Positions 31,542-48,736 of a stretch of 64,000 nucleotides of DNA are shown here, one piece after another. A model generated the notes under the pieces. That model did no database searches and was not told the DNA's origin. It saw nothing but the letters and a program-made list of their open reading frames with translations. This stretch comes from Naegleria gruberi (taxonomy: Eukaryota). Position numbers and translations under genes: made by a program. How positions within the stretch are numbered: the first letter of the stretch is position 1; every line of letters begins with the position of its first letter. The stretch is from NCBI GenBank assembly GCA_000004985.1, contig GG738883.1; one strand, written 5' to 3'.

Positions 31542-31600
31542 TTCATTTATTTGTCGATTTTTGAGCTCCTTTTTTAAGACTTTCAATAATTTTCATGTTA

Positions 31601-34512
31601 TTAGCTGATGCATGAATTGTAAATAAAATCATGTGATGAAATATCCAGATACTTACGATTTTTGGCGAGAGATTGTATTGTTAGGGCGCATACTTTCTTT
31701 AAATTTTCATTCTTTGATATATTGATTGTGTGAAGGAGCATTTCAAGTCCTTTCATCTTTCCAACCTTGGTACTTGTATCTTCATGGGATGACATATTCT
31801 TTATGCATAACACTGCTTCCTTAACAATGTTATCATTCTTATTGGTGAGTAATTTAAGGATTATTGGAATGTACTTCTGGTCGTTTGATACAACTTTCAC
31901 GTTCATTTCTTATTTAAAATTGAATATACAATTAATTCAATATGTTGAAACTTACTTTCTGATGTATAGTTCTTAATGATTGTTAGGATATTCTCTAAAA
32001 TATATTCATTATTAGAAGTATCCAATAGGTTAAAAAGAGGCCCAAGAGCCTCAAAAATCTTATCCCTTATTTCTAAATCAACAGTTAAAAGAGATAAAGC
32101 ACCAGTTATATTCTCTAACACATTCTCAGAAGTCTCGTAAAGAAGTGACAATAATATTGGCAAGCCTCTATTGTTTCTAAATTGAGTTTTGACAGTATCC
32201 AACCTTGCACAATTCCAAATAGTGGCAGCTGCATACTCTTTTATGGTTGGTGAATTTACATTTAATAGCTCCACAAGTTTTGTAAGACAATTGGTTTCCA
32301 TCAACTCAGGAATTGTTTCAACTTGATGAAGATTAGACAATTAAAACTATCAAAACATACCAACAGTGGAAGAATTTCTTAAAATGCCCAGAATTTTTTC
32401 AACAACTGATAACGAAGAGTTCTCTAACATGCCAACTAATAATGGGAATCCATGACATTCTCTAATGAGTTTCTTGTTCATATTGTCAATGCTACAGATC
32501 CACATAGTACTTGCTAGCTTTTCAATGATTGATTGTTTAGTTTCCTTCTCCAAAATTGCAAGCATTAATTCCAGACCTCCAATTTCACCAATAGTTTGTT
32601 TGTTTTGGTCATTGATGGCACAATTTCTCAAAGCACCAATAGCATTTTCTCTAATATTTTCATTGTCAGATTGAAGACAATGCAAAAGTGGCTCAAGACC
32701 ATTTGTCTTTCTGATAATCACCTTGACCTCTGCTTGGGATGCACAATTCCAAAGAGTTCCAGTAATATTTTCAATCACTGCTTCATTTTCATATGTCAAT
32801 AGTTGTACAAGTTTTGGAATTCCTCCCTTTTCATAAATCTCCTTCTTGTTGTCGTTATCAACAGCAAGGTTCCACAAGCATCCAGTAACATTTTCAAGGA
32901 CCCCAGGATTATTTGAGGCCAACAAATCAAGCAATATTGAAATAGCTCCCAACTCACGAAGTGTCATCTTATTCTCTGTGTTCGAAGCACAATTCCAGAG
33001 AGCTCCTGCAGCCTTACTCTGCAAACCTTCATTTGGGAATTTGAGAACATCTAAAAGAAGAGAAAGACCTTGTGACTCTCGTACTGTAATTTTGTTGTCG
33101 TCATCTCTAGTAAGATAGCCTAACGCAATAGTTGTATTTTCCAAAACGCTTATATTGTTTGTTTTCAAAAGAGAACATATAGTTGGTATTCCTTGATTAT
33201 TCCTAATCAGAACCTTATTTTCATCATCAATAGATAGATGCCAAATAGCTGTGATGGCTTTATCCATTACTTCTTCATTTTGGGTTCTCCATATCAGCTC
33301 CAGTAAGTTTTGGATAACTCCTATTTGACCTAGATGTCTTCTATTCTCGGCAGTGACAGAAAATGCTGTAATTGTTGAGCATGCTGAACAAAATGTTAGA
33401 TAAGTTAACAATGAACTAAAACATACCTTCCCCGTTCACATTTTCATTAATAGATTTGAGCAGTCTGGCTACTTGATCGAATCCATTTCTTTCTTTAACA
33501 ATTTGACAATATTCTTCTTTTCTACAAAGTTCGGAAATGATTCCCAATTGCAAGAATTGAATATCTGGTCTTGACACTTTAAGAGAGTCTAGGAGAAGCT
33601 CAGTGATTGTTATCCAATATTTTTCGTAATGATAAAACTCCTCTTCAAGAGTGGAACATAATTTGTAAAATTCAGTCAAGGCTTCCTTAGCAACTGATTC
33701 GCTAGGAGCATTATTATTCTGCAGGAACCACACAAAAGTTTCCAATCTCTTCTCAAGAGGAGATACTGTGAGAGTGGCCAACTTTTGTCCAGAAACATTC
33801 TCACAAAGATAAGAGTGAGCAGCCTTTACGCATTTCGATGCAATAGAGATTGATTTCATCTGATTATGTCAATAGTAAAATCCTAACAAAATACACACCT
33901 TCTTTCTAGTTTCCTCAATTGAGTCCTCTAATTTTTGTAGTTCCATTTTCAGCATCTTTTTAGCATGTTCTTTTACCTCCACTAATGATCCAAAGTCACC
34001 CTATCCAAAATCCGATAACACTTACCTAGATCCATTGTTTGTTTTTCCTCTTGTTTTAATTTTTCCATTTGTTCCTCCAGTAACGATTTCAAATGTGTTT
34101 GATTAACTGAACATTCTCCATTCAATTTTGTAAAAATTCTATCGATAATCAATAATTCCAATCATCATCATTTCAACTTACTCTGCAGCAGGTATCATTG
34201 ATTCATCTACTCCAGATATAACATTTAAAACATTGAAAAACGAGAACACTATTGTCTTTGTTATCATCTTTTAAAAGGCTTGTTTAAAAAACATACAAGT
34301 TGTTTGTACATCATCCGGATGATCCGATGCAATACCATTCTGTTCCGTTGTTTTGGAAACAGTATTATTCTCCCTACATTACACAGTAGCAAATCATATT
34401 AAGGATGATGATTAGCTAATTGAAAGGGTGGTATTGTTTTACTTACATTTTTTTTGAATATTACTTGATTGGCCAATGGAAAAGCGTTAAAGTTCGGAAT
34501 CGCTTTTTGCAT
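31601..34512 (-). CDS. Armadillo (ARM)-repeat protein, possibly axonemal (ARMC3/ARMC4-like), about 838 aa. Nine exons on the minus strand: 34512..34447, 34369..34297, 34248..34182, 34138..34026, 33981..33899, 33859..33427, 33383..32361, 32321..31956, 31893..31601. The four 5'-most exons are the least certain.
   Basis: Four track ORFs (33416..33859, 32350..33411, 31903..32340, 31601..31906) are linked by GTATGT/GTAAGT introns of 39-62 nt with matching phases. There are 10 or more ARM repeats (e.g. VLENTTIALGYLTRDDDNKITVRESQGLSLLLDVL, NPGVLENVTGCLWNLAVDNDNKKEI). Upstream small exons were inferred from acttac/acatac donor signatures and open frames. Confidence 0.55.
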
Positions 34513-34668
34513 CGGCAAATTATTAATAATTTCATCACCTACATCAGTATGGTCGCTTAGTTCAGTCAAACAAGTCAATGAAACACCTACTCAATTTTAT
34601 TGAGACAAATTACTAAAATCACTAAGGTTTCGTTCATGCTCAAGTGACTTATTAAGGAAATAATTGAT

Positions 34669-34759
34669 GGTGAGATGGTCGAGTGGTCTAAGACGACACG
34701 TTAAGGTATGATTGATACCGTGTTCCGCAAGGGCGTGGGTTCAAATCCCACTCTCATCA
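34669..34759 (+). tRNA. tRNA-Leu (anticodon AAG), type II with long variable arm, with 11-nt intron at 34707..34717
   Basis: Acceptor GGTGAGA/TCTCATC plus discriminator A. D-arm GTC-GAGTGGTCTAA-GAC. Anticodon stem ACACG/CGTGT with loop TTAAGG[intron tatgattgata]C. Variable arm TCCGCAAGGGC. T-arm GTGGG-TTCAAAT-CCCAC. A downstream T-run gttttacattgacatttt follows. Confidence 0.8.
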
Positions 34760-34945
34760 GTTTTACATTGACATTTTAAATTCTTAGAGATTAAGCGTAA
34801 CACGACCGTTTAATTTTGATAAACCATTAAAAAATGAACGCAAACAACAGAAACGATCCACTTACTAAATTGTACGTTAGTGATAAGTGATAAGTTTTTC
34901 CTTAGTGCAATTATGAATTAATAAAACAAACTCTATAGACAAAAT

Positions 34946-36227
34946 ATGGCCAAGACTGAGAGTATCAGAAGGCTTCAATCAATAGTAAGTAAACTCGTAG
35001 AGACTATGTGATCTTCAACTTAACAGCAATTAGGAAAATCAAATTTTGAAAGTCCTTCCATGATGAGTGTCGGTTCTCCAAATAATATTCATTCGTCTCC
35101 AGTCTCTCAAGATTGTAAGTGTTTCCGAATATTAATAAGGGTTGTTGATAATTGTATTAGTTGCTATTAATCCTGCTGTTGAACAACTTACGGATTGGAA
35201 GAATCAATTCAATGACAGACTATCTCAGGTTCAAGAAGAATTGTTAATGTTCCTGACACAAAAACATGTATCACAGGAGGAATTGGCAATTTTGATCAAA
35301 AACACATTTTCGGATTTTAAAATTTCAATTTCAGAATTATTGAATACTCTCACATTGTTAATGAAAAAGTTTTTAAAGAAATCTAAAAAGCTTGTTCAAA
35401 CAGCAGATAGTCAGTGGGAAGTTATTGTATTGGATCTTAACAATCAACTCGAGCATGTTTCTAGAGCTAGAGCAGTTGAGGAAGAAAAGAGAAAGGAATT
35501 GGAAAAGGAAGTTAAAATGTTAAGACAAAAGATGAAGTCAATGAAGATTGAAATGGTAAAACCAAAAGAAGATCAATATCAACAATTGGTAAATTCAATT
35601 CAATCAAACCCTTCCTCTCCAGTAGCCAAGGCAAGAGGTGTTGCAACTCCAAAGGGCTCTCCAACAAGAACACCAAACAAGAGTCCAAGAACACCAGCAG
35701 GAGGAAAGAAACCATTAACTTCTCCAAAAACAAAGACTCCAGCTAAACCTGCCGAAGAACCAGTCGTCACAGTTGAACCAGTTCCAGTTGTGACTGAATC
35801 ACCTAAAGTTGAAGAATCTGTTCCAGAAGTTAACGAACCAGAAGTTGTTGAACCACCTAAGGAAGAACCCCCAAAAGAGGAACCACCTAAGGAAGAAACT
35901 ACTCAAGTCGAGCCAAAGAAGGATGAAGAAGAGGAAGTAGACGAAAAGGATAGTAGACGAGACAGAAGAGGAAGAAGAGGAAAGAAAGACGATGAAGAGG
36001 AAGAAGAAGAGAAACCTACATCAAGAAGAGACAGAGGAAGAGGAAGAAGAGGTAAAAAGGATGATGAAGAAGAGGAAGAAAAAGAAGAGGAAAAGGAAGA
36101 AAGAGGCCGTGGCAGACCTTCACGAAGAAACAAGAAGAAGGACGAAGATGAAGAGGAAGAAGAGGAAGAGGAGAAACCTACAAGAAGAGTACGTGACAGA
36201 GGAGACAGAAGAAAGAGAAATGAATGA
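34946..36227 (+). CDS. Hypothetical coiled-coil protein with P/E/K-rich and RG/acidic-repeat C-terminal tail; 3 exons (34946..34984, 35027..35114, 35161..36227)
   Basis: MAKTESIRRLQSI|GTAAGT...cag|QLGKSNFESPSMMSVGSPNNIHSSPVSQD-F-AINPAVEQLTDWKNQF... The tail has EEPPKEE units and three RRDRGRGRRGKKDDEEEEE-like modules. Confidence 0.45.
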
Positions 36228-36410
36228 TTCAAATGAATTTCTTCTACTTCACTTGTAATCTATGTAATAATAAAAGAGAACTAATAATTCTAATTTCTTC
36301 CGAAACTTGCACGATTCAAACATTCCAATTTCCTTTGTTAATATTTAAATCCAATAATATGTTAGAACATAATTTTTGAAATTTTATATTTTAAATTTAT
36401 TGGAGTCGAT

Positions 36411-36779
36411 TTACTTGGTTTCAGTAGCCTTATCCTTTTGAGCCTTGATCTTCTTGACTTGCTTGACGATCTTCTTTTCTTCCATCAAGAAAGCACGGAC
36501 AATTCTTTCCTTAAGGTGGTTGTGATTCAAAACACCTCCATAAGCTCTGGAGATAGTTCTGGTGGATCTGGAAGCTCTCTTATTTTCAGATGGTCTCAAT
36601 CTCTTCAAACCTCTAACAGCTTCACCGCCCAAGTACTTTGGAACAGTTGGAGCCTTGACCTTTTTCTTGGTGAATTGGACAACCAACTTGCCAGATGGAG
36701 TCTTGACGAGCTTTTGCAAGTTAGATCTAGTATTGTAGGTCTTGGTTCTTCTGATGGTAACTCTTTTATCGAGAGACAT
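36411..36779 (-). CDS. RPL34: 60S ribosomal protein eL34, 122 aa
   Basis: RVTIRRTKTYNTRSNLQKLVKTPSGKLV...TISRAYGGVLNHNHLKERIVRAFLMEEKKIVKQ matches the conserved eL34 pattern. Confidence 0.9.
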   Translation of the reverse strand: MSLDKRVTIRRTKTYNTRSNLQKLVKTPSGKLVVQFTKKKVKAPTVPKYLGGEAVRGLKRLRPSENKRASRSTRTISRAYGGVLNHNHLKERIVRAFLMEEKKIVKQVKKIKAQKDKATETK

Positions 36780-36847
36780 CTATGTAGAATAATGATGTAA
36801 AGACAAAGAAGTTGGTAAAAAATGGACTGGCAGGAACTAACACTTAC
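36780..36847 (-). other. Probable 5'-UTR intron of the eL34 gene
   Basis: Minus-strand ...gtcgtaaaac|GTAAGTgttag...ctacatAG|ATGtctctc. The plus strand has a 'cacttac' donor signature at ~36842-36847. No in-frame ATG lies upstream. Confidence 0.4.
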
Positions 36848-37162
36848 GTTTTACGACTTTTTTTTTTCAACAAATTTTTGGTTGAGAAGGTACCTATGAT
36901 TTTTACAATGGAAAATTTTTACCAAGAACATCACAAAGAAAAATAAATCATTACTTCATCACTCTCAATTTTACTGGGTCTTTTTCTTACCAACATCGCT
37001 AATCATAGAATCCATCAGATGTTTCAATATATTATATATTAATATATTTCTGGAGCTATTATTCTTGTCGTACGATCGTTCATAAAGCATAACATTGCAA
37101 ATAGTAGCAGTATTGATATAACGAGGAATACAAAGTTATCTGAAGATGAAAAGGAGATTTAT

Positions 37163-40020
37163 TTAAAGTCCAGAAATATCAGCTCTGAGTACTTTTCTCA
37201 TCATGTTTGCTCTCGATTTGATGATGTTTTCTTGTTCTTTCATCCACTCCTTGTCTCCCTTCTTGGTAATATCCTTAAGAGCCAACAAGTCATAAATAAA
37301 ACCTCTTCTAAATTCCTTCTTGACAAATTGGTAGAGGAAAAGGATGAGACTCTCTTTGAGGGAATCATGTTCCTCCACTTTGGCCAATCTAAAGAAGCAT
37401 CGAGTAATTTCCACCTCACTAAAATCTAACAATAAATTAAGGAATAACAATCTGAAAAAGACCACATCCAACTGTTGAAGACTATTAAAGTCAATAATCT
37501 TGAGCATGGAGAGTGAGAGACATCCTTTACCAATCAATTCTGAGAGAAGCTTACTGATATTGATCAGCTTTCTGACAGTATTCTTTGATAAATCATCAAA
37601 ATATTCGTAAAAAGTGAATTGGAATGCTCTGTTGGTATTTTCAATACTGCATAGCTTTTCTGCTAATTTGCTGTAGTATGGATTAAATCCCTTCTCTTGA
37701 CAACAACAGTGTAATAAAACTCTTGCAATTTCTCTATTGTTCTTTTGAATACCCAATTTGACTAATCTTTGGAATGCATCAATGAAATCGTCACTTCCCA
37801 TTAGAATACAGAAAACAGCCCTTCTCAAATCTGTTGTCATTCTCTGTTCCTTGGCAAGTTTTTCAAGTTTTCTGAGAGTCTTTGGATCCATGTCATGGAG
37901 GGCTACACTGATATTATCTCTATTCTTCATAGAAGACAATGCAGTAGCATTTGAATTATCAATTGAAGAACCAACTTGATTGCCAGTCCATGCTGAACCG
38001 ACAAGCCACCATCTACCCTTCTTTTCAGCTTCAATCAAATCAATATATGGAATTCTCAACGTGTTTTCTCCAGTCTTCTTCTCCTGTTTTTGTAAATCCT
38101 TGACGCTTTGTTTCAATTGTTTGTATTGTTCAGAAATGTCTTCTTGATATTGTCTCTTTCTATTATTTCTCAAATCATAAATCATTTCAACGAGGAATTT
38201 CATACGTTTAGCAACAGCTGAACCTTCGTCCTTCACGGTATCTTCGTATTTTTCAAAGCTTGACTTGATAACCTCGATAATGTCCTTCATGGCAGCAGGA
38301 TCGTCAATCTTGAGTTGGAAACCACAAGCTGAAATTAAATTTTAATATTGACTGATTCAAAACTGAATACACATACCTTGAAGTAATTTGAAAAGATATT
38401 CCACATTCAGTTCATTAATATTGAGGCAGAACATTCTAATAATATCATAGATGAGTCCACAATAAATTAACTATTGTAATAAAAGCTTTAAGAGAGCTAT
38501 TCAAATAAAAACTTACACCCAAATTGTAGACGTGACAAATTAATGTCAACAAGTTGGAAGCTTGATGTCTTTGATCGACAATTGAATCGAATTTTTGGAT
38601 CAATTTCTCCATAAAGTGAGCACCAATGTTGGTTCCTCCAATATTGTGCATTGCAACCATGTAGGCAGCATACACCAAAATGAAATTACTTTGAAGGTCA
38701 ACAGTGTCACAAACGCTTTCAATAATAGAATTTGAAAGAATATCATGGAAATCTTTGTATAAATAGTTAAAATCGTCATCAGACAAAAAAGAAACACTTA
38801 CCATTCTTACTACTCTTTTCATAGAGAGCTAATGATTCCTTTGTGATTGAAGAAATATTGGCAAGAGAAAGCTTGTTCAATAAATTTCTAATGCTCTTTT
38901 GAAGGGCAATATAGGATTCAGATTTTCTACCACTTTCCAAAATTTGTTGTTTTCTCATATGAGGAGGAACATATTTTCCACTTGTATTTTCTTCTGTTTC
39001 TCCTTCTGCTGGTTCTGAAGATCGCTCAGGTTTCTTTCCTTTTTGTAAAAGGGTGGCAAGGGTTGGTACTTCACTCTTTAAAAATTCAGAATAATCAACT
39101 CCTTGTTGCTCAGATTCAAGCATGGCGTCAATTTCTGCGTCAAGATTGATCATATCTTCTGGGTCAATATCACCAAACATTCCTTCATAATCTTCTGCAA
39201 ATTCTCCAAGATCTTCTTCATCAATTTTTGGTTCTATGTATCCAGGAACGATATCCTCTCCATCACTTTCTTCCTGCTCTTCTACAACCTTTTGTTTTTT
39301 CTTTTCTTGCTTTTTCAACCTCTTTTCCTTTACAAAGTTTTCCAAATTAGAGGAGCCAGGGTCTGTATCCAATTCGTCAATTGCCTTATTCTTTTTAATT
39401 TTCAATTTCTTTTCGAGATAGGCAATAACCTTATCATCTAGATCTTCATCACCCTTTGACATACCTTCTAACATGTCCTTTGTAATAAATATAGCTGTAG
39501 AGTCCTTATTATTTTTCAATTCTTCTTCATCCAAGTCGTCGATAATTTCCGATTCATCAGAATTGTAATCATTTCTAGAACTACCTCCATATCCATCATC
39601 AGAAAAATCATCATCTTCATCTTCAGCCATTAAATCATCCTCAAACAATAAATCCTCACTTTCTTCTTGCTTTCGTTTCTTGGCTTTCACTTCGGCTTTT
39701 TGAGATTCTTGCTTTCTCTTATTTGCTTGTTGTGGATTAGATTCTGTCTTCTTTGTTGGTTGAACTTTTTGGCTTCCCTTCTTATTAATCTCTTTTGGTT
39801 GTTTATCATGGTTTTTAGCTTTACTCAATTGTTTTTGCTTCTTTTTCTGTTTATTCTTTTTCTTTGATTTTGCCAACATGAAGCTCATTTGTTCAATATG
39901 TCCATCACCAAATTGTTTTGATCCGCCACCAATAGCAGCAGCATTTGTTTCCGCAAGATCATCATCTTCACCACCTCCTCTTCCTCTCTTTTTCCTAAAC
40001 GATTTTCCTCTGTTCATCAT
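37163..40020 (-). CDS. NOM1: Nucleolar MIF4G/MA3-domain protein NOM1/Sgd1 homolog, about 904 aa; 4 exons (40020..38802, 38752..~38517, 38470..38377, 38328..37163)
   Basis: Basic/acidic N-terminal region, a MIF4G segment (...LVYAAYMVAMHNIGGTNIGAHFMEKL...LICHVYNLG|LIYCGLIYDIIRMFCLNINELNVEYLFKLLQ-A-CGFQLKIDDP) and an MA3 segment (LRRAVFCILMGSDDFIDAFQRLVKLGIQ...). Three introns of about 46-49 nt link the track ORFs 38779..40020, 38445..38822 and 37163..38290. Confidence 0.7.
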
Positions 40021-40188
40021 ATTTTTTTAATTCAATTTTTTTGTCTATTAATAATTTCACAACAACTAAAATTTTCAAATATTTAATTGAATTCTATTTC
40101 AAAATTTAGTTGTATAATTTAATAATATTATTGCATTAATTCAATTATTCATCTAATAACAACTAATATTGTCCAACAGATTGATTAC

Positions 40189-40923
40189 ATGGCTGTTAAC
40201 AATAATTTCAAAATTAAAAAAATGAGTGATAACAACACTAGTGGAAACAATACATCATCAACCAATCAAAATCACTCACAAGCAAAGGAGGCACTATTGC
40301 AATCCCATAAAAATTGTATTTCATTTGTGAAGAAACAATTATCGGATCCTGTCATTACATTTGTTTTGCGAGAAATAGAGAACATGGGATGTCCTTTGCC
40401 AAATCCATTTTTTCGATGTGAAAGATGTTTGCACAGCTCGTTGGATAAACCAAAATTCAGTGCTGCTTATGTTTTGGGTTCTTTTGATAAATTTGATAAA
40501 GATGAACAAGAGACTGATAGTGACACTATTGATACAGATAATTTCTTTGGTAAACCTGGAGTATTATTATGTGAGGATGTTATGGAAAGGTATTCCAAAT
40601 CAGATGACAAGACTGTCATTTTACACGAACTTATTCATGCCTATGATGACTGTAGAGCAATGATTAACTGGAAGAGTTGTGAACAATTAGCTTGTGCTGA
40701 AATTAGAGCTTCCTCACTGAGTGGAGAATGTGATTTTTTGCATGAAACTAGGAGAGGAAAATTGTCAGGTCTTAGAGGACAATTCATGAATTGTGTCAAG
40801 AGAAGAGCAACTTTGTCACTCAATTCCAGTGCTATTTGTGGAGGTCAAGATAATGCTAAGCATGTAGAAGATGTTTTCAAGACTTGTTTCAATGATACAG
40901 AACCATTCATCAAGAGAATTTAA
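40189..40923 (+). CDS. ATP23: Mitochondrial inner-membrane metalloprotease ATP23 (peptidase M76) homolog
   Basis: HEXXH motif in VILHELIHAYDDCRAMINW, plus conserved cysteines (CERCLHSS...CEQLACAEIRASSLSGEC). An alternative start lies at 40222 (aaaaaaATGagt). Confidence 0.75.
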   Translation: MAVNNNFKIKKMSDNNTSGNNTSSTNQNHSQAKEALLQSHKNCISFVKKQLSDPVITFVLREIENMGCPLPNPFFRCERCLHSSLDKPKFSAAYVLGSFDKFDKDEQETDSDTIDTDNFFGKPGVLLCEDVMERYSKSDDKTVILHELIHAYDDCRAMINWKSCEQLACAEIRASSLSGECDFLHETRRGKLSGLRGQFMNCVKRRATLSLNSSAICGGQDNAKHVEDVFKTCFNDTEPFIKRI

Positions 40924-41133
40924 ATCCATACATAGTATACTACAATGTTGGTTGTGGGTAAAATAGAATTCCTGATTTCTGTTGTCATTGAATATTATAT
41001 GGAGGAGGAATTTAAAGTTTTCATCATGGAATATGGATAACCAAAATAATGGCCAAAGATGAAGTTGTAATTTTGTTTGGCGCCAAAAATTATAAAGCCT
41101 ACTGAAATGTTGGCGCCCAATCTACAATAAAAA

Positions 41134-43929
41134 ATGGCTCAACGTACTATCAGTTTGGGTAAGTAATTATTGTTATTGTGTTTGAAGGTATATGAAAATC
41201 ATTCCGAACTTTAATAGGGGTTAAATTTGTTGAGGGACAACATTGGCCAAAACCAAAGAATGCTAAAACTCCTTCAAAGTATCATTTTTCGATCTGCTTG
41301 TTGAATGGAGACATTGAAAAAACTAGAGTAATAACCGATGCAGAAATGGGAGCTATCAATATTGAGAAGTCATTTGCTAACATTCCAGTGGAAGTATGTA
41401 CACTTTTCTTCAGATTGTATTTATAATAATTAAGGATCTTTTGAATTTAGTAATTAATAACTCAACAGTGGATGTTCTCCATATAAAGATGATCAAGGGA
41501 GAAGATGACAAAAATGCTGTAGAATTTGGATTTTTGGATTTCAATATTTCAGGATTATTTACTAAAAACGAGGTGGAAGTAGTTGGAAATGTCACAATTA
41601 CTGAGGAAGGAGCAACACAGGAAGAAATTCCAACTGTAAAGCTACAGTTGAGTGTAAGTGAAGCTTTACTTCCAAAAAATGAAATATTGGAGGGAAATTT
41701 GCTTAGTATCAAACTGGGTCCAATAGTAAATTTACCAAGAAGTTGGCTTCCTAAAGATGCTCAAAATATTGCAGATATTCCATTAGATTTTACTGTAATG
41801 TGTAATTTACCTATTGGATCAGGCCAAAGAACCTACTTTTTCAGAAATGGTAGAATGGTAATGAGACCATCAACGGATGATCCAGAACGGAATGAGGCAG
41901 TAGTTCAATGGCCAAAGGATAAGAAAACTTTCTTTATAGATTCAGAAGCAATGAAGGCTTTCGAGAAGTCATGCGTAAATTGTGAATGCTTGAATTTCAA
42001 GCTGTATAGAGGAATAGTAAAGGAAATGATGATGGATGGATGGGTTGACCAAAATGAAAAACGATATAGAGCTGTTTTTGGAAAAACTCTGAGAGAATTA
42101 TTAGAACCAGGTACTAAATCATCCAAACAAGATATACAGTTGGGACACGCCTCTGCAGATGAAGAATTCCCTGCTGATCCAAGGCCAAAGAGTGCAAATA
42201 AGAAAAAGAAAAAGTCAAAGGATCCAACTCCAGCTCAATTATTACCTGATGCTGATCATGATTCAAAACCTTATGTTGAAAATGGATCGGCAATATCTAT
42301 CGAAATTTCATTTGAGAAACCTCTTATTCCAAAACCTGAGGACAGAACAAGAACCAACATGAGACCTTCTGATATTATAACAAAGAGACAAAAAGTAGAG
42401 AAGAAAAAGTAAGTTTTATTCAAGAATTGATTAGAATTTCAATCTTCAATTTATACAGGGACATTGTGGAAAAATACCAAGAAGAAATATCAGGTGTTGT
42501 GGACATTCTAGTTGAAGAATATAGAGCTCTAATTGAAAGAGAGTCTAACTTTGATAAGGAACATTTTATCTTTGAACTTAACCATACAGGAAAATACTTT
42601 GCTTTCAAGGAGAGACTGAAGGCTTGTGTTGTTAATCTTGTAAAAGAAAAGTTTAGTCATGAACTCAAGTCAAAGAAGGAACACGAGGTCAAGGCGTTCT
42701 ACAATGATATCTATGTTTACTTGGTAAAACAAATGCACGTTGCTATCAACAAGATATTCAACAAGGCAAAGGAACAAGATCGTAAAGAATCACCAATACA
42801 AGAAGAAAACAAGCAAGCAGACAAGTGGAAGAGACTTGCTGATGAGGCTGAATTCGAGTTTAATTATATTGCAGCTGCTAAATATCACCAAGAGAGAATA
42901 ACTGGTACAGATGAAGAGCTTACAGCAGAAATGTGGTATGAATACGGAATTTTCAGTTTGAGAGTAAAGGATTTGACTAAGGCTGAACAATCATTCAGAG
43001 AAACTCTTTCTCGAAACATGGCTCACTTAGAGTGTTTGAGAATGTATGGTGTTTTACTGTGTATCAAAGGTCAATTGAAGGAGGCAGAAGTATTCCTTCA
43101 GTCGTCAGTTGACTTGGATAACAATAACTTTATTTCATGGGGAGTTCTTGGAATGCTCTTCTCCTTAACAGGAAATGAGAAACAGGCATCTCAATCATTT
43201 TTATATGGTGATTTAGCAATGGAAAAGTCTGGTGTAGACAAAACTCTTCCACTCAAATTAAGAGTTGCTAACTTTTTATTGGAAGTTAATGCTGATTCTC
43301 TTGCTGAAAAGTTACTTATTGATTGTACACAACACTTTGGAGAGTCTGCTGATACATTATATGCTTTTGCCAAGATGTATTCTATTAGAGAGGATTATGA
43401 TTTGGCAAATGAACAATTACAAAAGAGTCTGAAGATTGTTTACAAATCCGGAAGAACATGGGAGTTGTTGGGTATGATTCATCTAAAGCTTGGTAATGTA
43501 ACTGAGGCTGAGAAGGATCTTGAGTCAGCTCTTAGTGTCTCTACGGCCCCAACAGCTCACATGTTATTGAGACTTGCCAATATTTATTTATCATTGGAGA
43601 AGTATGAAAAATCAAAAGACACTTATTTGAATGCAGCAAACTTGTGGTCTTCTTGTACAGCATGGTTAGGAGCAGGTATTTCCTATTATCGTTTGGGTGA
43701 CTATAATTTAGCAGAGCAAGCTCTTAATGAGGCCAACATTCAAAATAACAGAAATGCTGATGTTTGGGGATATCTTTCATTGATTGCTCTTCAAAACAGA
43801 AGAGAAAAAGAAGGAGAGAAATGTTTAAGAGAGGCACTCAAACATGGTTTAAAGGCTTCTAATCCAAGTCTTATTAATGAGATTTCTGCCTCCATTTCTC
43901 AATTCAAAACACTTAAAATAAATATTTAA
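41134..43929 (+). CDS. CFAP70: Cilia- and flagella-associated protein 70 (CFAP70/TTC18) ortholog, about 881 aa; 4 exons (41134..41158, 41218..41393, 41435..42408, 42459..43929)
   Basis: [30 protein letters not shown]...FYNDIYVYLVKQMHVAINKIF matches human CFAP70 ([28 protein letters not shown]...LYVFLVDQMHVALNQT). The TPR C-terminus SCTAWLGAGISYYRLGDYNLAEQALNEANIQNNRNADVWGYLSLIAL matches [47 protein letters not shown]. Donors are GTAAGT/GTATGT; the introns are 59, 41 and 50 nt. Confidence 0.75.
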
Positions 43930-43944
43930 TCACCCATTACTTTA

Positions 43945-46267
43945 TTAACTCAATTGGTGATCATTTAGAATATCTTCACAAAATATAAGTTGGTGGATCA
44001 GTGGAATGTATCCTTGTTTTTGTCCAATAACAAGTGATACTTGTGAATCAATAATTCCTTCATTTAGGTCTTCTCTTCTCAATAGCTTGTAAACTCTCAA
44101 TAAGATGTCATCTCCAAGCGATTCCTCCAAATACTTTCTTAACGCTTCTATTCTAAAGTTGAGAGAATCATTGTCCTTTGTCCCTTCTAACATTAAAGTT
44201 TTACCCATAATCTTGAACTTGTTTGGGAGTGCTGGTGATTCCTCCTCTTGTTCGTTTTCACTTGTAAAAATGTCATCGTCATCATTTCTTGACAAATTCT
44301 TAATATCTCCAACTACGTTTTTCATTGTTTTTAGAATTGAATTGTTCAAATTTCCTCCTGATTTTTGATTATATTGATTTTGGTGATCTTGAATTAAAAT
44401 ATTTGATCTATACCCATTATTGTTATTGTCATCTTGCTTTGGGATGACATTGTTTGCTTTCATTTTTGATAACCTTTCTTGCCTCCTCCTCTCCTCTGCA
44501 TATACTTGTTTTTCAGCTACTGAATCATCTATGGGACGCCCTGATTTTGGGGGCTGTGAAGAATCTGTCCCATCATACAATTGAGATTCCACTCGCCTAC
44601 GATTCATTTCAGCTTGCTTTCTCATTTCCCAGTATTGTTGCTTTCTGAACTCGGCTAATTTTTCTTCCTCCTTTTTTTTAATATCCTCCTCTCTCCTCCT
44701 TCCATCGTCTTTCGGAACAGCACTTGGTAGAGGTCTATTGCTTCCAATGTCTTTACTTAAAATAGAGTACTTGTCTTCCTCTTGCTTTACTCTCATTTTG
44801 TTCCTCAGAGCATTTACTCTGCAGAAATTCAACACAAAATTGGTCCTTAAGAACTTACCTTGCTTCTTCATAGATTGACTTTCTTTCTCGTTCTAACTTT
44901 TCTTCGGCATACTGCTTTTGCCTTAGCTCGTATTCTCTTTTTCTGTCGGCAATGTCTTTCATTCTCTGCTCTTCCTCAAACATTTTTTGTTCCTTCTCTT
45001 TTTGTAATTTTAAAAGTCTTTCCTTTTCTCTTTCTCTCTGCTCTTGGAGTTGTTTCCTCCTCTTCTCTTCCATCATCTTATCATTGATGAAACTTGCCTT
45101 TGGAGCGACTGAGGGTGTCACCAATTTAGGTGTTGGCTTTACAATATCTCTCTCGTATTTCGCAAGGACTGGAGCATTATTATTGTTATTGGAAATTAGA
45201 GGCATTCCTCCAACATTAGAGAACTTTCTATTATCCTTAAACGCAGAAGGTGGTACTTTAACTTCTGGGACTGGACTAGAAACTCCGCTTGGACTCTTTT
45301 CTTGTACTTTTTCTCCACTTGTTTCAGGCTCTCCTTTTGATAACAAGAATTCCATTCTCTTTTGAATGAATGGTATTTTCAAAACAGAGTTTATACTTGG
45401 CCTGTCTCTAGGATCCTTTTGTAACATTTTGCCAATCATATCCCTTAGATCAGACGAGTAAGTTGAACTAATTGGGGGATAGGTTCCTCTCAGAATTTTT
45501 CCAACCAGAGCTTTCATGTTATTAGCCTCAAAGGCATGTTTCAACGTCACCAATTCGTATAGAATGCACCCTAAAGACCATACATCGGATTTGTTGTTAT
45601 ATCTATTATTATGTTTAGCACATTTGTAATAAGCAGAAACTTACGGTTTTTCTTGACAAATTTCAGGTGACAAGTAGTAAGGAGTACCAACAAGGGTCTT
45701 GGCACATTCCATTGTCGATTGCAACACTTTGCTGATACCAAAATCTCCCAATTTCAAAGTTCCATCTTGTGCAATAAATATATTTTGTGTCTATGAAAGA
45801 GTTATCATGAAATGAAATAATTGGTGCATACCTTCAAGTCTCTGTGTAAAATTCTTCGGTCGTGAATATATTTTACAGCCATTGATATCTGTATGAACCA
45901 ATCCACAAGTTTTTCCTCTGGAAATAATTTTGATTTTTGTTGTTTAATCTTTTCATATAAATCTCCTTGACTCGCATATTCCATAACTATATTCAATTTT
46001 CCTCCATCCTGAAATGAATCAACATATTTTACAATATTGGGATGTTGAAGAGAACTTAATACTTTCACTTCATTAAGTGCTTCCTTTCTTTCCTTCTCCG
46101 GTATTCCTGATATTTCTATTTGTTTGATTATATACATGTTATTGTCAATTTTTGACTGAACAAGCACAGCTTGTCCGAAGGTTCCTTTTCCCACAACCTA
46201 TAACAGACTTGTTCAAATATTTCATCTTGAAATTACTCCTTACCTTGACCTTCTTGTAGTTTTGCAT
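43945..46267 (-). CDS. NIMA-related (NEK) serine/threonine kinase with long charged coiled-coil C-terminal region, about 717 aa; 5 exons (46267..46244, 46197..45832, 45790..45645, 45602..44859, 44818..43945)
   Basis: MQNYKKVK|[16 protein letters not shown]...[11 protein letters not shown]...HRDLK|[23 protein letters not shown]...[15 protein letters not shown]|[26 protein letters not shown] are NEK hallmark segments. Four introns of 40-46 nt have GTAAGG/GTATGC/GTAAGT donors. Confidence 0.75.
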
Positions 46268-46444
46268 TTTTTTTGGGTTAATCAAAAACTTGGCTGTAGA
46301 TTTTTGATAACCGTTACATGCCGTTTTTGTTCGTATTCCCGCCTTTTTATTAATAATAAATAGAACAGTTTTGAACATTAAGTGTTGAGTCAATGTAAAG
46401 TAGCTGTTTGAAAATTTTTATATATTATGATACAATTAAGGTTT

Positions 46445-48614
46445 TCATTCTTTAAGCATGCATGAATTGGTTTTCAAGTGGAAATCCCATTGCTTTTCAG
46501 TTCTGGTAATTGCATTGCCCAAAATTGTTTTAGTTTGAGTTTGAAGTGCTGCAATATACTTGTCCTTAACTTCCTTCTCGGAGGTGTTGGCATTTGCCTT
46601 CTTTGCTGCTTCTGAGCTGATCATTGATTCATCTAAAAAGCCAGCTGTATCAAGGAACTCAGTCATTGCTCCCATTAATTGATCGTACATAATGGATCTT
46701 CTAATCTTGGTTTCAAGTTTGGCAGTTTCTCTTTCAATATATTCAACCTGTTCCTTATCTAAAACTCTCATTAATTCTAACAAGACCACGAGGAGAGTGT
46801 GTCTCTTCTCATCCTCTGTAATTTGTTGCACAAGTGCCCTCAATGAGAAGAGAGAATAATCCCAAACAGTATTCGATTGTTGTAAAATGGTTGCTGCGTT
46901 TGTGTACAAACAATGGAAAGCATGTAGTAAATCTTCAGAAATGGAGAATGTTGTTACTTCATGATACAAGTGCTTGTTTCTTTCCACAAACTTTTCTCTC
47001 AGTAGATCAACCTTTATCTTTCTCATTTCGTCTCTATTGTCTTTTGGTGGGGCTGGTTCAGGTAAGTTATCAATCACTCTTTCTACTATATCATGCATTA
47101 CAATGTAAACTCCATTCTCCTCCTCCTTCTCTACAAAAGGTTCCAAATCCTGTTGTTCCTCTGAAATTACTACTCCTTTCAATTTTACCTCATCACAATC
47201 ACAATAAGCCTTTGGAATAGTTTCCAATTTAAATCCATCAGTAAAAATTCCTTCCATATCAGACTCGAATGAAAAGACAAACTTTTTGGTTTTTTGAGGA
47301 AGCAATATTCCCTTTCCTTCTGTAGAAAGCATAAATTTGGATTCAGCCCTCTTCTTTTGAAGTGATGTAATTGGCTCAACCTTAACCCATTTGTATTGGA
47401 TTGAGCAGCATCCTGTATTTTCAAGAACAACCTCCTTTTGAACCAATTCTCCTGGAATGGCATCAAAAAGAATATCATTTTCCGATAATTGAAAAGCAGG
47501 AGCTTCCATCTCTTCTTTTGCTTCCTCTTCCTTAATTTCGTATGGAAGATGAGAAGCAGAATATGTTTCCTCTTCGTCATATGTATTGTACTTTTCCTCA
47601 ATCTTTTGACCAATAACCTTCAGTTCTTCAATAAGAGAAGAGGGATCATGGGTTAGTTCCTTAGCTAATAGTTTTCCATATTTCTTTCTGAAATAGATTT
47701 AGAAATTTCGATTCAACCAGGGTACTTACTTTACATAGTCTGATTTCATTGACCTAATTCCCAAAGGTGTGTTATCCCTAATTAAACGTTCCAGTACATC
47801 TCAAAAACAATAGACAACTTACTCTGCAATAAATCTATCAGGATTTCTCACAGTAGCTGGCTTTCTAATTTTTTTCTCAATAATAGGACAAAACAAAGGA
47901 TATGGATAATTTCCAATTTTAACATATCTCACTCCATCGTCCTCAGGTACATCTACAATAACTTAAGTAAATGAAAAACATTAATACTAACTTCTAAGAG
48001 ATAATTCCCAACTCCATTCGTTGTGACGTTTTTCTACTGGAATGGAAGCTTCCAAAATATCTATTTCCTCTCTTTTTGCTCTGAATGCATCTTGACTTTC
48101 CATCACCAAAGAAGTTTTTGGCTATTATCCTCAATAAAACATTCAATCCCCAACCTACCTTTCCTGTTTTATTTGCCAACCGTTCTCCAATATCCCCCCA
48201 AGTTTGCAAATATTCTTCATACTTTCTGAGGGCCTTCTCTTGCATAAATTGTCTTCCTACTGCCTTATCGTCATGAATTGTTTTTTCCAACTTTTCCGAA
48301 AATTTTGGTTTTGTATTTCTAGAACTTTCCAAATTTTGCTTCATTCTCTTAAACGATTCATTATTAGCCTCCACATTTGAACACAATGATCCAGAACTCT
48401 GCAGTGTTGATTGAAGTTGTGATCGACTCATTGCAGTCATGTACTGATCCAATGATCCTAAAATTTCAATCTCCGATTTTGGAAGACGAGAAGCATCAAA
48501 TAAATTCGGAACCATACTAGGCTCCATTCCTGGTTCAACATTAGATAAATTCATCTCCATTGGAACCTCAACCCTTGGAGGTAATTGAGGAGCAGACTCT
48601 GGTTGTGGTGTCAT
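46445..48614 (-). CDS. ASH (MSP-like) domain protein, possibly MYCBP-associated protein (MYCBPAP/AMAP-1)-like, about 668 aa; 5 exons (48614..48159, 48121..47992, 47952..47823, 47777..47730, 47687..46445)
   Basis: Track ORFs 47994..48614 and 46445..47509 are linked through three micro-exons by introns of 37-45 nt (donors GTAGGT, GTTAGT, GTAAGT x2). The ASH-type beta-sandwich signature is FQLSENDILFDAIPGELVQKEVVLENTGCCSIQYKWVKVEP. The family call is tentative. Confidence 0.45.
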
Positions 48615-48736
48615 TTTTTTAAATGAAAAACACTGTAAATTTTTAATAAGAAATTGAGTTGTAATGATGTATTATAATAAACACAATAGAAATTCTTATT
48701 AAAAAGTTTAATAATTTGTATGTACAATTTTAAGGC

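What the first reader, a model, noticed from the sequence alone, without database searches (positions are those of the whole stretch)
31601..48614. Neighbourhood enriched in cilium/flagellum-associated genes (ARM-repeat protein, CFAP70, NEK kinase, ASH-domain protein)
Within 17 kb lie a multi-exon ARM-repeat protein (31601..34512), a clear CFAP70 ortholog (41134..43929), a NEK kinase (43945..46267) and an ASH-domain MYCBPAP-like protein (46445..48614). These are all protein classes tied to axonemes or basal bodies, and the last three are directly adjacent. They are the most intron-rich genes in the window and share the ultra-short intron class. Their presence shows the organism builds flagella. 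Their adjacency may reflect co-regulation during flagellar assembly.
Basis: partly seen in the sequence, partly recalled or inferred. Interest (0 to 1): 0.6.

Follow-up and report, generated by a model that had tools for sequence, protein, structure and literature searches.

The report
Naegleria flagellar genes sitting side by side
In the amoeboflagellate Naegleria gruberi, two genes for partner proteins of one flagellar sub-structure (CFAP70 and MYCBPAP) flank a NEK kinase gene, but related species lack this arrangement, so it looks like a recent accident of gene order; any co-regulation more likely comes from a short E2F-like promoter motif.

Summary
The window is Naegleria gruberi NEG-M, which has an amoeba-to-flagellate transition. 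All four genes are real.

- **CFAP70 (41134-43929, +):** clear ortholog.
- **NEK (46267-43945, -):** NEK1-like kinase.
- **MYCBPAP (48614-46445, -):** family member with a PapD/ASH-like beta-sandwich.
- **ARM protein:** about 14 repeats, and it ends at 31543, not 31601. It is not shown to be ciliary. ODAD2 is its best solved match, but a true ODAD2 ortholog ranks only about 117th against the family profile.

CFAP70 and MYCBPAP are direct partners in the C2a projection of the central apparatus.

**Adjacency is not conserved.** MYCBPAP lies beside MeaB in N. fowleri, N. lovaniensis and Willaertia. NEK is beside CFAP70 only within Naegleria. The ARM-to-CFAP70 linkage is ordinary synteny that includes housekeeping genes.

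**New lead.** An E2F-like element (TTSSCGS) lies 24-75 bp upstream of the ATG of CFAP70 and NEK, of orthologous MYCBPAP, and of GAS8/DRC4. N. gruberi MYCBPAP lacks it.

**Verdict.** Real genes, with the interpretation only partly supported. Any co-regulation probably works through each promoter, not through adjacency. Expression data could not be retrieved.

The parts
31543..34512 (-). ARM-repeat gene, about 827 aa and 8-9 exons. It has an N-terminal disordered and coiled-coil region followed by about 14 armadillo repeats. The 5' exons are uncertain. A ciliary role is unproven.
   Evidence: Spliced model. Last exon 31604-31543 read from the sequence. It matches the family consensus. Pfam Arm 250.8 bits. 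Orthologs: N. lovaniensis 65% identity and Willaertia 58%. Structure model with pLDDT 86.5. ODAD2 orthology not supported.
34669..34759 (+). Intron-containing class II tRNA gene directly upstream of the ARM gene. It is a neighbour, not part of the cluster.
   Evidence: ARAGORN; Rfam tRNA 48.3 bits; sequence read.
41134..43929 (+). CFAP70/FAP70 ortholog, 881 aa in my model. Exons are 41134-41158, 41218-41393, 41435-42408 and 42459-43929. It has C-terminal TPRs. It is annotated as hypothetical protein NAEGRDRAFT_70274 / EFC41808.1 (868 aa).
   Evidence: model; TPR; 9ijj_k CFAP70 at 2.2e-72, FAP70 7n61/7som at 1.4e-30; animal proteins named CFAP70; annotation.
41077..41116 (.). Two E2F-like elements in the CFAP70 promoter: the palindrome TTTGGCGCCAAA at 41076-41087 and TTGGCGCC at 41110-41117. 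They lie 24-57 bp upstream of the ATG. An AATCTACA element follows at 41119-41126.
43945..46267 (-). NEK-family kinase gene, about 719 aa. The kinase domain (residues 4-258) is NEK1-like, and the long C-terminal region has coiled coils. It is convergent with CFAP70, with 15 bp between the stop codons. The last 34-nt intron near 44913-44878 is doubtful.
   Evidence: model; Pkinase 239.8 bits; NEK1 at 6.6e-106, 358.8 bits; NEK7 about 1e-58; orthologs and start codon.
46336..46342 (.). E2F-like element TTCCCGCC in the NEK promoter, 69-75 bp upstream of the NEK ATG and 103 bp downstream of the MYCBPAP stop codon. An AATCTACA element lies at 46295-46302.
   Evidence: The orthologous sites in N. lovaniensis (L005 3367-3376) and N. 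fowleri (L007 3075) are conserved.
46445..48614 (-). MYCBPAP/FAP147 family gene, 671 aa. Exons are 48614-48159, 48121-47992, 47961-47823, 47777-47730 and 47687-46445. It has a PapD/ASH-like beta-sandwich. Its 122-bp promoter (48615-48736) has no E2F-like element.
   Evidence: model; PF14646 92.7 bits; mouse MYCBPAP 9ijj_v at 6.3e-07; FAP147 at 0.0019; orthologs 52-53% identical, named MYCBP-associated protein by UniProt; fold; no motif.
46268..49899 (.). About 3.6-kb segment (MYCBPAP plus a zinc-type alcohol dehydrogenase gene at 48737-49744) that lies between NEK and the BEACH gene only in N. gruberi. In N. lovaniensis the NEK start and the BEACH end are 83 bp apart. No flanking repeats were found.
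   Evidence: synteny; ADH; no terminal repeats.

Best explanation
This is a stretch of the Naegleria gruberi nuclear genome in which ordinary gene-order history has placed three flagellum-related genes next to each other.

**The genes**
- CFAP70 and MYCBPAP encode two subunits of one structure, the C2a arm of the axonemal central apparatus. MYCBPAP/FAP147 is the 'rachis' protein that organises FAP65 and FAP70.
- The NEK1-like kinase between them is probably part of the same flagellar or centriolar programme. This step is inferred.
- The ARM-repeat gene 6.6 kb away belongs to a separate ARM family found in Discoba and Metamonada. Its function is unknown, and it is linked to CFAP70 only by a generic conserved synteny block.

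**How the arrangement arose**
- ARM...CFAP70 linkage predates the Naegleria/Willaertia split.
- The convergent CFAP70/NEK pair is shared by three Naegleria species.
- MYCBPAP, together with an ADH gene, lies between NEK and the BEACH gene only in N. gruberi. Its position beside MeaB is most likely ancestral, because the outgroup Willaertia shares it.

**How co-expression would work.** It most likely comes from each gene's own short promoter. Each carries an E2F-like GC element (TTSSCGS, for example TTTGGCGCCAAA or CCCGCCAA) 24-75 bp upstream of the ATG. Adjacency itself is probably not the cause.

**Shown versus inferred.** Gene identities, synteny and motif distribution are shown here. Motif function, the ciliary role of NEK and the direction of the MYCBPAP move are inferred.
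For: **Organism.**

**Identities.**

**C2a partnership**
- FAP70 and FAP147 are in the same PDB entries, 7n61/7som, and CFAP70 and MYCBPAP are both in 9ijj.
- PMC9113940 describes the C2a arm as assembled around rachis FAP147 with FAP65 and FAP70.
- PMC13345628 reports mutual co-IP and mutual dependence of CCDC108, MYCBPAP and CFAP70.

**Synteny**
- N. lovaniensis gene order is SNARE-ARM-unknown-RPL34e-MIF4G-unknown-ATP23-CFAP70-NEK-BEACH-EF2, with no MYCBPAP or ADH.
- N. fowleri has CFAP70-NEK-BEACH-EF2.
- Willaertia has ARM-unknown-RPL34e-MIF4G-ATP23-unknown-CFAP70, followed by a pseudouridine synthase and no NEK.
- MYCBPAP lies next to MeaB in all three, with no CFAP70, NEK or ARM within 10 kb.

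**Geometry.** CFAP70 and NEK are convergent with 15 bp between stops. MYCBPAP and NEK are in tandem, 177 bp apart.

**Motif**
- The strict form TTSSCGC has 7 matches in 64 kb, and 4 of them fall in the 387 bp of CFAP70 and NEK promoters.
- It is conserved in orthologous promoters. It is also present upstream of N. lovaniensis GAS8/DRC4, which was not used to find the motif.
- 9 of 14 'ciliary' promoters carry it against 5 of 90 others (Fisher p = 1e-6). Per species the p-values are 0.02, 0.0035, 0.0065 and 0.31.
- Shuffled promoters give 0.46 expected, with a maximum of 4.
Against: - No expression data were obtained for these genes, so co-induction is untested. The stored copy of the RNA-seq table is truncated.
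- Two subunits of one five-member complex lying two genes apart is improbable by chance: about 0.0025 genome-wide for C2a alone.
- MYCBPAP appears to have moved next to its partner and, in N. gruberi, lacks the promoter element its orthologs carry. Both points fit a functional reading.
- The motif was found post hoc on a handful of genes, and orthologous promoters are not independent samples.
- E2F-type sites classically mark cell-cycle genes, so the element may say nothing about flagella.
- Only the window was available for N. gruberi. A second MYCBPAP copy beside MeaB cannot be excluded.
Confidence: 0.6

Rival explanations
1. This is a nascent functional gene cluster. In the N. gruberi lineage MYCBPAP was relocated next to NEK and its C2a partner CFAP70. 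It now depends on the neighbouring E2F-like elements or a shared chromatin domain, so the three genes are switched on together during flagellar assembly. Adjacency would then be selected.
For: - CFAP70 and MYCBPAP are direct partners whose proteins need each other for stability.
- The N. gruberi MYCBPAP promoter (122 bp, 17% GC) has no E2F-like element, whereas the N. fowleri and N. lovaniensis promoters have one 25-36 bp upstream of the ATG.
- The nearest element in N. gruberi is the NEK one, 103 bp beyond the MYCBPAP stop codon.
- The chance probability of such a partner pair is low.
Against: - The arrangement occurs in one species only.
- The inserted segment also carries an unrelated ADH gene.
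- The other Ng/Nl indel in this region moves GAS8 plus two unrelated genes, so small rearrangements are simply common here.
- CFAP70 and NEK are convergent, which does not suit promoter sharing.
- There are no expression or transcript data.
- The other MYCBPAP promoter lacking the motif, Willaertia's, is only 42 bp long. The motif is therefore not obligatory.
Confidence: 0.15
2. This is pure coincidence, with only two ciliary genes. The NEK kinase serves mitosis or some other process, the ARM protein is a generic scaffold, and the GC element is a general or cell-cycle promoter element. The apparent enrichment then reduces to one chance pair, CFAP70 and MYCBPAP.
For: - NEK kinases also act in mitosis (established knowledge), and no localisation or expression data exist for this one.
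- ARM orthology to ODAD2 failed.
- E2F consensus sites are classic cell-cycle elements.
- About 6,389 genes change more than 2-fold in differentiation, so 'induced' is a weak label.
- Kennard et al. note that central-pair genes such as CPC1 and PF16 also rise in mitosis.
Against: - The same element lies upstream of three bona fide axonemal genes (CFAP70, MYCBPAP orthologs, GAS8/DRC4). It is absent from all housekeeping promoters examined: EF2, RPL34e, RPS15a, ATP23, MIF4G, SNARE, MeaB and BEACH.
- NEK family size tracks cilia across eukaryotes (established knowledge).
Confidence: 0.25

Closest known systems
C2a projection of the ciliary central apparatus (Chlamydomonas FAP65-FAP70-FAP147; mouse CCDC108-CFAP70-MYCBPAP, plus ARMC3 and MYCBP)
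   Same: The window encodes orthologs of two of the three core subunits, CFAP70 and MYCBPAP. Their domain make-up is as expected: TPRs in CFAP70 and a PapD/ASH-like sandwich in MYCBPAP.
   Different: In no described organism are these genes reported as neighbours. Here they are two genes apart, and only in N. gruberi. The third core subunit, CFAP65, is not in the window. Whether the nearby ARM gene corresponds to ARMC3 could not be tested, because no ARMC3 sequence or structure was available to the tools.
NEK1/NEK3/NEK5-type NIMA-related kinases
   Same: The kinase domain matches human NEK1 at 358.8 bits (6.6e-106), far above NEK7 or NEK2 at about 200 bits. It has a long C-terminal coiled-coil region, as NEK1 does.
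   Different: The C-terminal region has no Pfam match. One-to-one orthology with NEK1 was not tested. No localisation or expression data exist.
ODAD2/ARMC4 (outer dynein arm docking complex subunit 2)
   Same: It is the best solved-structure match for the ARM protein by sequence (2.5e-58; profile 3.1e-65). It is also the best by fold (Foldseek 1.9e-22 over 605 columns). The layout is similar: a non-ARM N-terminus followed by about 14 ARM repeats.
   Different: The alignments are non-collinear and shifted by about 3 repeats. Identity is 21%, no better than beta-catenin. A true ODAD2 ortholog ranks about 117th at 257 bits, against more than 700 bits for family members. The family has its own conserved N-terminal coiled-coil region.
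E2F/DP binding sites (TTTSSCGC), including E2F4/5-MCIDAS control of multiciliogenesis in vertebrates
   Same: The promoter element matches the E2F consensus exactly, for example TTTGGCGCCAAA, TTTTCCCGCC and TTTGGCGGG. It sits close to the start of genes needed to build axonemes.
   Different: Binding by a Naegleria E2F has not been shown. In vertebrates E2F4/5 mainly drives centriole-amplification genes and upstream regulators, not axonemal structural genes (PMC12183034). No paper found here links E2F to Naegleria cilia genes.
Co-expressed neighbouring genes and functional gene clusters in eukaryotes (for example the Chlamydomonas 'uni' linkage group rich in flagellar loci; from my own knowledge)
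   Same: Functionally related flagellar genes lie close together on a chromosome.
   Different: This case involves three genes with no conservation across species, no shared promoter geometry, and no evidence that proximity matters.

Membership tests
CFAP70 / FAP70 | Full-length sequence similarity to known CFAP70 proteins, well above other TPR proteins | tested here: met
   Mouse CFAP70 (9ijj_k) scores 2.2e-72 and 248 bits in 2 stretches. Chlamydomonas FAP70 scores 1.4e-30. The next hits are designed TPR proteins matching only the C-terminal TPRs. Animal proteins named CFAP70 are the first hits outside Heterolobosea.
CFAP70 / FAP70 | C-terminal tetratricopeptide repeats | tested here: met
   Several Pfam TPR families match between residues 548 and 853.
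CFAP70 / FAP70 | Localisation to the C2a projection of the axoneme | not testable with these tools
   Known for Chlamydomonas and mouse. Not known for Naegleria.
MYCBPAP / FAP147 | Match to Pfam PF14646 above the gathering score | tested here: met
   92.7 bits against a cut-off of 24.5, covering profile positions 249-424 of 439. All orthologs carry PF14646.
MYCBPAP / FAP147 | Similarity to structurally placed MYCBPAP/FAP147 chains | tested here: met
   By sequence, mouse MYCBPAP (9ijj_v) scores 6.3e-07 and FAP147 (7n61_0I) scores 0.0019. By Foldseek the top hit is 7som_J, and 7n61_0I also appears, but the model has pLDDT 49.6. The support is weak but consistent.
   Strands at residues 300-396 of the N. 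fowleri ortholog have pLDDT of about 70. They match the HYDIN PapD-like domain (2e6j), OCRL ASH (3qbt), CEP192 ASH (6fvi) and MSP domains at E of 4e-5 to 1e-3. There is no hit to a separate Pfam ASH model.
NEK (NIMA-related) kinases | N-terminal protein kinase domain most similar to NEK kinases | tested here: met
   Pkinase 239.8 bits at residues 4-258. The top 16 PDB sequences are NEK1, NEK7 and NEK2 (one of them a PKR-kinase fusion construct). PLK and others score lower.
NEK (NIMA-related) kinases | Ciliary or basal-body function of this particular paralog | not tested
   The only evidence is indirect: it shares the E2F-like promoter element with axonemal genes.
ODAD2 / ARMC4 | Collinear, full-length similarity, with ODAD2 orthologs as the closest relatives outside the lineage | tested here: not met
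   Alignments are register-shifted and partial. The ODAD2 ortholog P0181 scores 923 bits against bovine ODAD2. It ranks about 117th at 257 bits in the family-profile search.
ODAD2 / ARMC4 | About 14 ARM repeats following a non-ARM N-terminal region | tested here: met
   Structure model and a Foldseek alignment of 605 columns to 8j07_m7. This architecture is not specific to ODAD2.
ARMC3 (mouse C2a component) | ARM repeats at the N-terminus plus a C-terminal EDR1-like domain (from my own knowledge), and sequence orthology | tested here: inconclusive
   The protein has no C-terminal extra domain. No EDR1 domain appeared in ten related representatives. No ARMC3 chain appeared among the listed PDB hits, and afdb50 was unavailable, so a direct comparison was impossible.
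Co-regulated eukaryotic gene cluster | Conservation of adjacency beyond background synteny | tested here: not met
   MYCBPAP is elsewhere in three other taxa. NEK is absent from the Willaertia locus. The conserved block includes housekeeping genes.
Co-regulated eukaryotic gene cluster | Co-expression of the members | not testable with these tools
   Kennard et al. Data S2 is truncated in the held copy. Fritz-Laylin and Cande 2010 is not held.
Co-regulated eukaryotic gene cluster | Shared cis-regulatory element | tested here: inconclusive
   The E2F-like element is present in the CFAP70 and NEK promoters but absent from the N. gruberi MYCBPAP and ARM promoters. Each element is gene-proximal, which argues for separate promoters.

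The most novel reading that the evidence does not exclude
Two linked ideas remain open.

1. An E2F-like element (TTSSCGS, about 25-75 bp upstream of the ATG) is part of the missing cis-regulatory code that switches on axonemal and central-pair genes during Naegleria's amoeba-to-flagellate differentiation. Naegleria lacks RFX, FOXJ1 and XAP5.
2. In N. gruberi the C2a 'rachis' gene MYCBPAP moved next to NEK and CFAP70, lost its own element, and now borrows theirs. This would be an early stage in the birth of a co-regulated cluster for one axonemal sub-complex.
Probability: 0.2. Interest if true: 0.6.

Novelty: new member of a known kind. Interest (0 to 1): 0.35.

Why it matters
**The gene neighbourhood** is mostly a curiosity. 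It shows that in a compact, rearranging protist genome two partner subunits of one axonemal arm can end up side by side without that order being conserved. Functional clustering should therefore not be read from a single window.

**The more useful product is a testable lead.** Naegleria assembles basal bodies and flagella from scratch in about an hour. The transcription factors behind this mass induction are unknown, because RFX, FOXJ1 and XAP5 are absent (PMC12183034). A conserved E2F-like element upstream of CFAP70, NEK, MYCBPAP and GAS8/DRC4 gives a concrete motif to test genome-wide against the published RNA-seq time courses. If it holds, it would link E2F-type regulation to ciliogenesis well outside animals.

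**Annotation gains.** A 'hypothetical protein' (NAEGRDRAFT_70274) can now be named CFAP70, and its neighbour can be named MYCBPAP.

Tried and rejected
- **Expression look-up.**
  - Fritz-Laylin and Cande 2010 and the genome paper are not held, and PMC11753955 is not held.
  - Kennard et al. Data S2 has per-gene log2FC with scaffold coordinates, but the stored copy stops at about jgi_447xx. No row for these genes was found.
  - A text search for locus tags and UniProt ids found nothing.
- **N. gruberi context beyond the window.** The look-up of encoding contigs has no N. gruberi record.
- **'These genes are unannotated in N. gruberi'.** I suspected this because no N. gruberi hit appeared. I rejected it: CFAP70 is EFC41808.1, hidden inside a cluster whose representative is a short ENA fragment.
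- **ARM = ODAD2.** Rejected as unproven after the profile, register and rank tests.
- **ARM = ARMC3.** Could not be tested.
  - afdb50 is not installed.
  - No EDR1 domain was found in related representatives.
  - Cluster names were uninformative.
- **GAS8/DRC4 as a fifth ciliary gene in the window.** It is present in the collinear N. lovaniensis region but absent from the N. gruberi window.
- **Transposon-like ends around the MYCBPAP+ADH segment.** None found.
- **Willaertia genes near MYCBPAP.** A TPR protein, a kinase and an ARM protein lie nearby, but they are not orthologs of the window's CFAP70, NEK or ARM.
- **L008 as an extra species.** It is N. fowleri again, 99.8% identical to L007.
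- **Unknown genes carrying the motif** (Nl unk271, Nl unk301, Wm unk198). None has a Pfam match, so they add nothing.

Full report
**What the window is.** Three single-exon ORFs match Naegleria gruberi NEG-M proteins exactly: EFC41805, AP-1 beta (EFC41797) and EF2 (EFC41809). All sit on a 371,401-bp scaffold. The sequence has 29-40% GC per 2-kb block (mostly 31-36%) and is gene-dense. The flagellate/non-flagellate transition he hoped for does exist.

**Checking the observation.** I built spliced models with a small dynamic-programming script.
- CFAP70: 41134..43929 (+), 4 exons, 881 aa.
- NEK: 46267..43945 (-), about 719 aa. The start MQNYKKVK and the first intron are identical in N. fowleri. 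The last 34-nt 'intron' is doubtful.
- MYCBPAP: 48614..46445 (-), 5 exons, 671 aa.
- ARM gene: starts near 34512 and ends at 31543 rather than 31601. A 52-nt intron is followed by a 20-aa exon, which fits the family consensus (LAKxPxN) and the ortholog's length.
- Introns are 30-59 nt with a median of 42.5, so they are short but not ultra-short.
- The four genes are among the most intron-rich here. ARM has 7-8 introns, MYCBPAP 4 and NEK 3-4. CFAP70's 3 are matched by two other genes, and the rest have 0-3.
- Only the last three genes are adjacent. Between ARM and CFAP70 lie a tRNA, an unknown gene, RPL34e, a MIF4G/MA3 gene and ATP23.

**Identities.**
- CFAP70 is secure. Mouse CFAP70 (9ijj_k) scores 2.2e-72 and Chlamydomonas FAP70 scores 1.4e-30. 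The remaining hits are generic TPR proteins. Named animal CFAP70 proteins are the first hits outside Heterolobosea. In GenBank it is 'hypothetical protein NAEGRDRAFT_70274'.
- MYCBPAP is secure at family level.
  - Pfam PF14646 scores 92.7 bits against a cut-off of 24.5.
  - Mouse MYCBPAP scores 6.3e-07 and FAP147 scores 0.0019.
  - Orthologs are named MYCBP-associated protein by UniProt.
- A low-confidence model (pLDDT 49.6) still shows a beta-sandwich. It matches HYDIN, OCRL and CEP192 PapD/ASH domains and MSP domains, and the top hit is a chain of the Chlamydomonas C2 structure.
- The kinase is a NEK. The NEK1 kinase domain scores 6.6e-106, against about 1e-58 for NEK7.
- The ARM protein has about 14 repeats after a disordered and coiled-coil N-terminus.

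**The ARM gene is not shown to be ciliary.** ODAD2/ARMC4 is the best solved match by sequence and by fold. Several tests argue against orthology.
- The alignments are in shifted registers: profile positions 368-694 align to ODAD2 703-1030, leaving about 3 repeats overhanging.
- Identity is 21%, the same as for beta-catenin.
- Designed consensus ARM proteins score higher per residue.
- In a search of 1.84 billion representatives with the family profile, about 20 proteins match full length at more than 700 bits. A euglenid is among them.
- A verified ODAD2 ortholog (923 bits to bovine ODAD2) ranks only about 117th, at 257 bits.

ARMC3, a C2a component recently reported in mouse, could not be compared. 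No ARMC3 chain appeared among the listed PDB hits, afdb50 is not installed, and no EDR1-type C-terminal domain appeared in related proteins. The ARM protein belongs to a distinct family of unknown function, with its full-length relatives in Discoba and Metamonada.

**A sharper link than 'cilium-associated'.** FAP70 and FAP147 (MYCBPAP) occur in the same Chlamydomonas C2 structures, 7n61 and 7som. CFAP70 and MYCBPAP both occur in the mouse sperm central-apparatus structure 9ijj. [quoted passage not shown] Lyu et al. show mutual co-IP and mutual dependence of CCDC108, MYCBPAP and CFAP70 in mouse (PMC13345628). Two of the three adjacent genes therefore encode direct partners.

**Synteny.**
- N. 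lovaniensis is collinear with the window from about 25.8 to 46.2 kb and from 50.1 to 58.9 kb. Its order is SNARE-ARM-unknown-RPL34e-MIF4G-unknown-ATP23-CFAP70-NEK-BEACH-EF2. NEK and BEACH are 83 bp apart, and MYCBPAP and the ADH gene are missing.
- N. fowleri has CFAP70, then 23 bp, then NEK, BEACH and EF2.
- Willaertia magna keeps ARM-unknown-RPL34e-MIF4G-ATP23-unknown-CFAP70. A pseudouridine synthase, not NEK, follows CFAP70.
- MYCBPAP orthologs in N. lovaniensis, N. fowleri and Willaertia all sit convergent with MeaB. No CFAP70, NEK or ARM lies within 10 kb of them.

The MeaB-adjacent position is therefore probably ancestral and the N. gruberi position derived. The ARM-to-CFAP70 linkage is background synteny that carries housekeeping genes. 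The CFAP70/NEK pairing is genus-wide but lies inside a generally collinear region. No repeats flank the 3.6-kb MYCBPAP+ADH segment. The other indel between the two species moves GAS8/DRC4 plus two unrelated genes, so small rearrangements are common here.

**Geometry.** CFAP70 and NEK are convergent, with 15 bp between their stop codons. They cannot share a promoter, and their 3' ends must overlap. MYCBPAP lies 177 bp upstream of NEK in tandem.

**A shared promoter element.** I compared the short upstream regions of the four genes and their orthologs. This revealed a GC element in otherwise AT-rich DNA.
- Examples:
  - N. gruberi CFAP70 has TTTGGCGCCAAA and TTGGCGCC.
  - N. gruberi NEK has TTCCCGCC.
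  - N. lovaniensis and N. fowleri NEK have CCCGCCAAC.
  - N. lovaniensis and N. fowleri MYCBPAP have CCCGCCAAAA.
  - N. lovaniensis CFAP70 has TTGCGCCAAAA.
- This matches the E2F consensus TTTSSCGC (established knowledge).
- The strict 7-mer occurs 7 times in the 64-kb window (3.0 expected). Four of these fall in the 387 bp upstream of CFAP70 and NEK.
- In 222 kb of window plus loci there are 29 matches to the looser TTSSCGS.
- It lies within 200 bp upstream of 9 of 14 'ciliary' starts against 5 of 90 others (Fisher p = 1e-6). Per species the p-values are 0.02, 0.0035, 0.0065 and 0.31. Composition-matched shuffles give 0.46 expected.
- N. lovaniensis GAS8/DRC4 provides an independent check (Pfam GAS 244.5 bits). 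It was not used to find the motif, and it carries GGCGCCAAA 37 bp upstream of its ATG.
- Housekeeping promoters lack it: EF2, RPL34e, RPS15a, ATP23, MIF4G, SNARE, MeaB and BEACH.
- N. gruberi MYCBPAP (122-bp promoter, 17% GC) and the Naegleria ARM genes also lack it.
- I found no paper connecting E2F to Naegleria cilia genes. A recent review states that the relevant factors in Naegleria are unknown.

Caveats apply. The motif was discovered post hoc on few genes, orthologous promoters are not independent, and the element may be a cell-cycle element. On that last point, Kennard et al. note that some central-pair genes also rise in mitosis.

**Is the clustering more than chance?** I assume that 2-5% of about 15,700 genes are ciliary.
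- Three adjacent ciliary genes are then expected 0.13-2.0 times per genome, and with probability 2e-4 to 3e-3 in a given 25-gene window.
- Two of five C2a genes lying within two positions has a genome-wide probability of about 0.0025.
- This is unusual for one window. The test is post hoc, the NEK assignment is unproven, and many possible 'themes' could have been noticed.
- Because 6,389 genes change more than 2-fold during differentiation, 'co-induced neighbours' alone would be weak evidence.

**Conclusion.** There is a real pair of C2a partner genes flanking a NEK gene, and CFAP70 and NEK share a conserved promoter element with other axonemal genes.
- Adjacency is evolutionarily labile and geometrically unsuited to promoter sharing.
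- The most likely explanation (about 0.6) is chance plus inherited synteny, with co-regulation through individual promoters.
- A nascent functional cluster, in which MYCBPAP lost its own element and borrows its neighbours', is not excluded (about 0.15).
- Expression data, which would be decisive, could not be retrieved with the tools.

Noticed in passing
window 41076-41117 and 46336-46342; L004 3942 and 19372; L005 3367-3376; L007 3075; L001 9965; L002 9976; L006 3462: A conserved E2F-like GC element (TTSSCGS, for example TTTGGCGCCAAA or CCCGCCAA) lies 24-75 bp upstream of the ATG of CFAP70 and NEK. It also lies upstream of MYCBPAP orthologs and of N. lovaniensis GAS8/DRC4. It is absent from the housekeeping promoters in the same loci. 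This is a candidate cis-element for Naegleria flagellar genes.
   Followed up: partly
window 48615-48736: The N. gruberi MYCBPAP promoter (122 bp, 17% GC) lacks the E2F-like element. The N. fowleri and N. lovaniensis MYCBPAP promoters carry it 25-36 bp upstream of the ATG.
   Followed up: partly
window 41119-41126, 46295-46302; also L001, L003 and L006 promoters: A second short motif, AATCTACA, lies 8-28 bp upstream of the ATG in several of the same promoters. It is possibly an initiator element. It is not enriched window-wide (6 matches against 4.2 expected).
   Followed up: partly
window 46268-49899 versus L005 3320-3403 and L007 3011-3950: N. gruberi has a 3.6-kb two-gene insertion (MYCBPAP plus a zinc-type alcohol dehydrogenase) between NEK and the BEACH gene, relative to N. 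lovaniensis and N. fowleri. No flanking repeats were found.
   Followed up: yes
L004 17935-21892 versus window about 26.6-27.0 kb: N. lovaniensis carries GAS8/DRC4, an unknown 271-aa gene and a DHHC gene at a spot where the collinear N. gruberi region has nothing. This is a second small rearrangement that involves an axonemal gene.
   Followed up: partly
window 31541/31543 and 43929/43945: Convergent gene pairs have only 1 bp (SNARE/ARM) and 15 bp (CFAP70/NEK) between their stop codons, so their 3' UTRs must overlap. The CFAP70/NEK spacing is conserved, at 15 bp in N. lovaniensis and 23 bp in N. fowleri.
   Followed up: partly
window 34669-34759 (+) and 59499-59572 (-): Two tRNA genes. The first is 91 nt, with a long variable arm and an apparent intron. 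ARAGORN could not name its anticodon, and it may be tRNA-Leu(UAA). It sits directly upstream of the ARM gene. The second is tRNA-Val(AAC).
   Followed up: partly
window 2462-3604 (+) and 4609-5874 (+): Two neighbouring ORFs encode similar Ser/Thr/Tyr-rich proteins. Each has one transmembrane stretch and the same C-terminal ending (PAFNPNVDRV and PAFNPNVDSV). They look like tandem paralogs. Neither has a Pfam match.
   Followed up: no
window 49900-55479 (-): A large gene of about 1,800 aa combines a degenerate kinase domain, a BEACH domain and WD40 repeats. The separate-looking ORF at 54817-55479 is its first exon, as shown by the N. fowleri ortholog.
   Followed up: partly
window 59764-62480 (+): One gene combines a protein kinase domain with DUF4116 repeats and six Sel1 repeats, which is an unusual architecture.
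   Followed up: no
N. gruberi's own annotated proteins did not appear in the homolog searches. They are hidden inside 90% clusters whose representatives are short ENA fragments. For example, CFAP70 (EFC41808.1, 868 aa) sits under a 487-aa representative. This can wrongly suggest that a gene is unannotated.
   Followed up: yes
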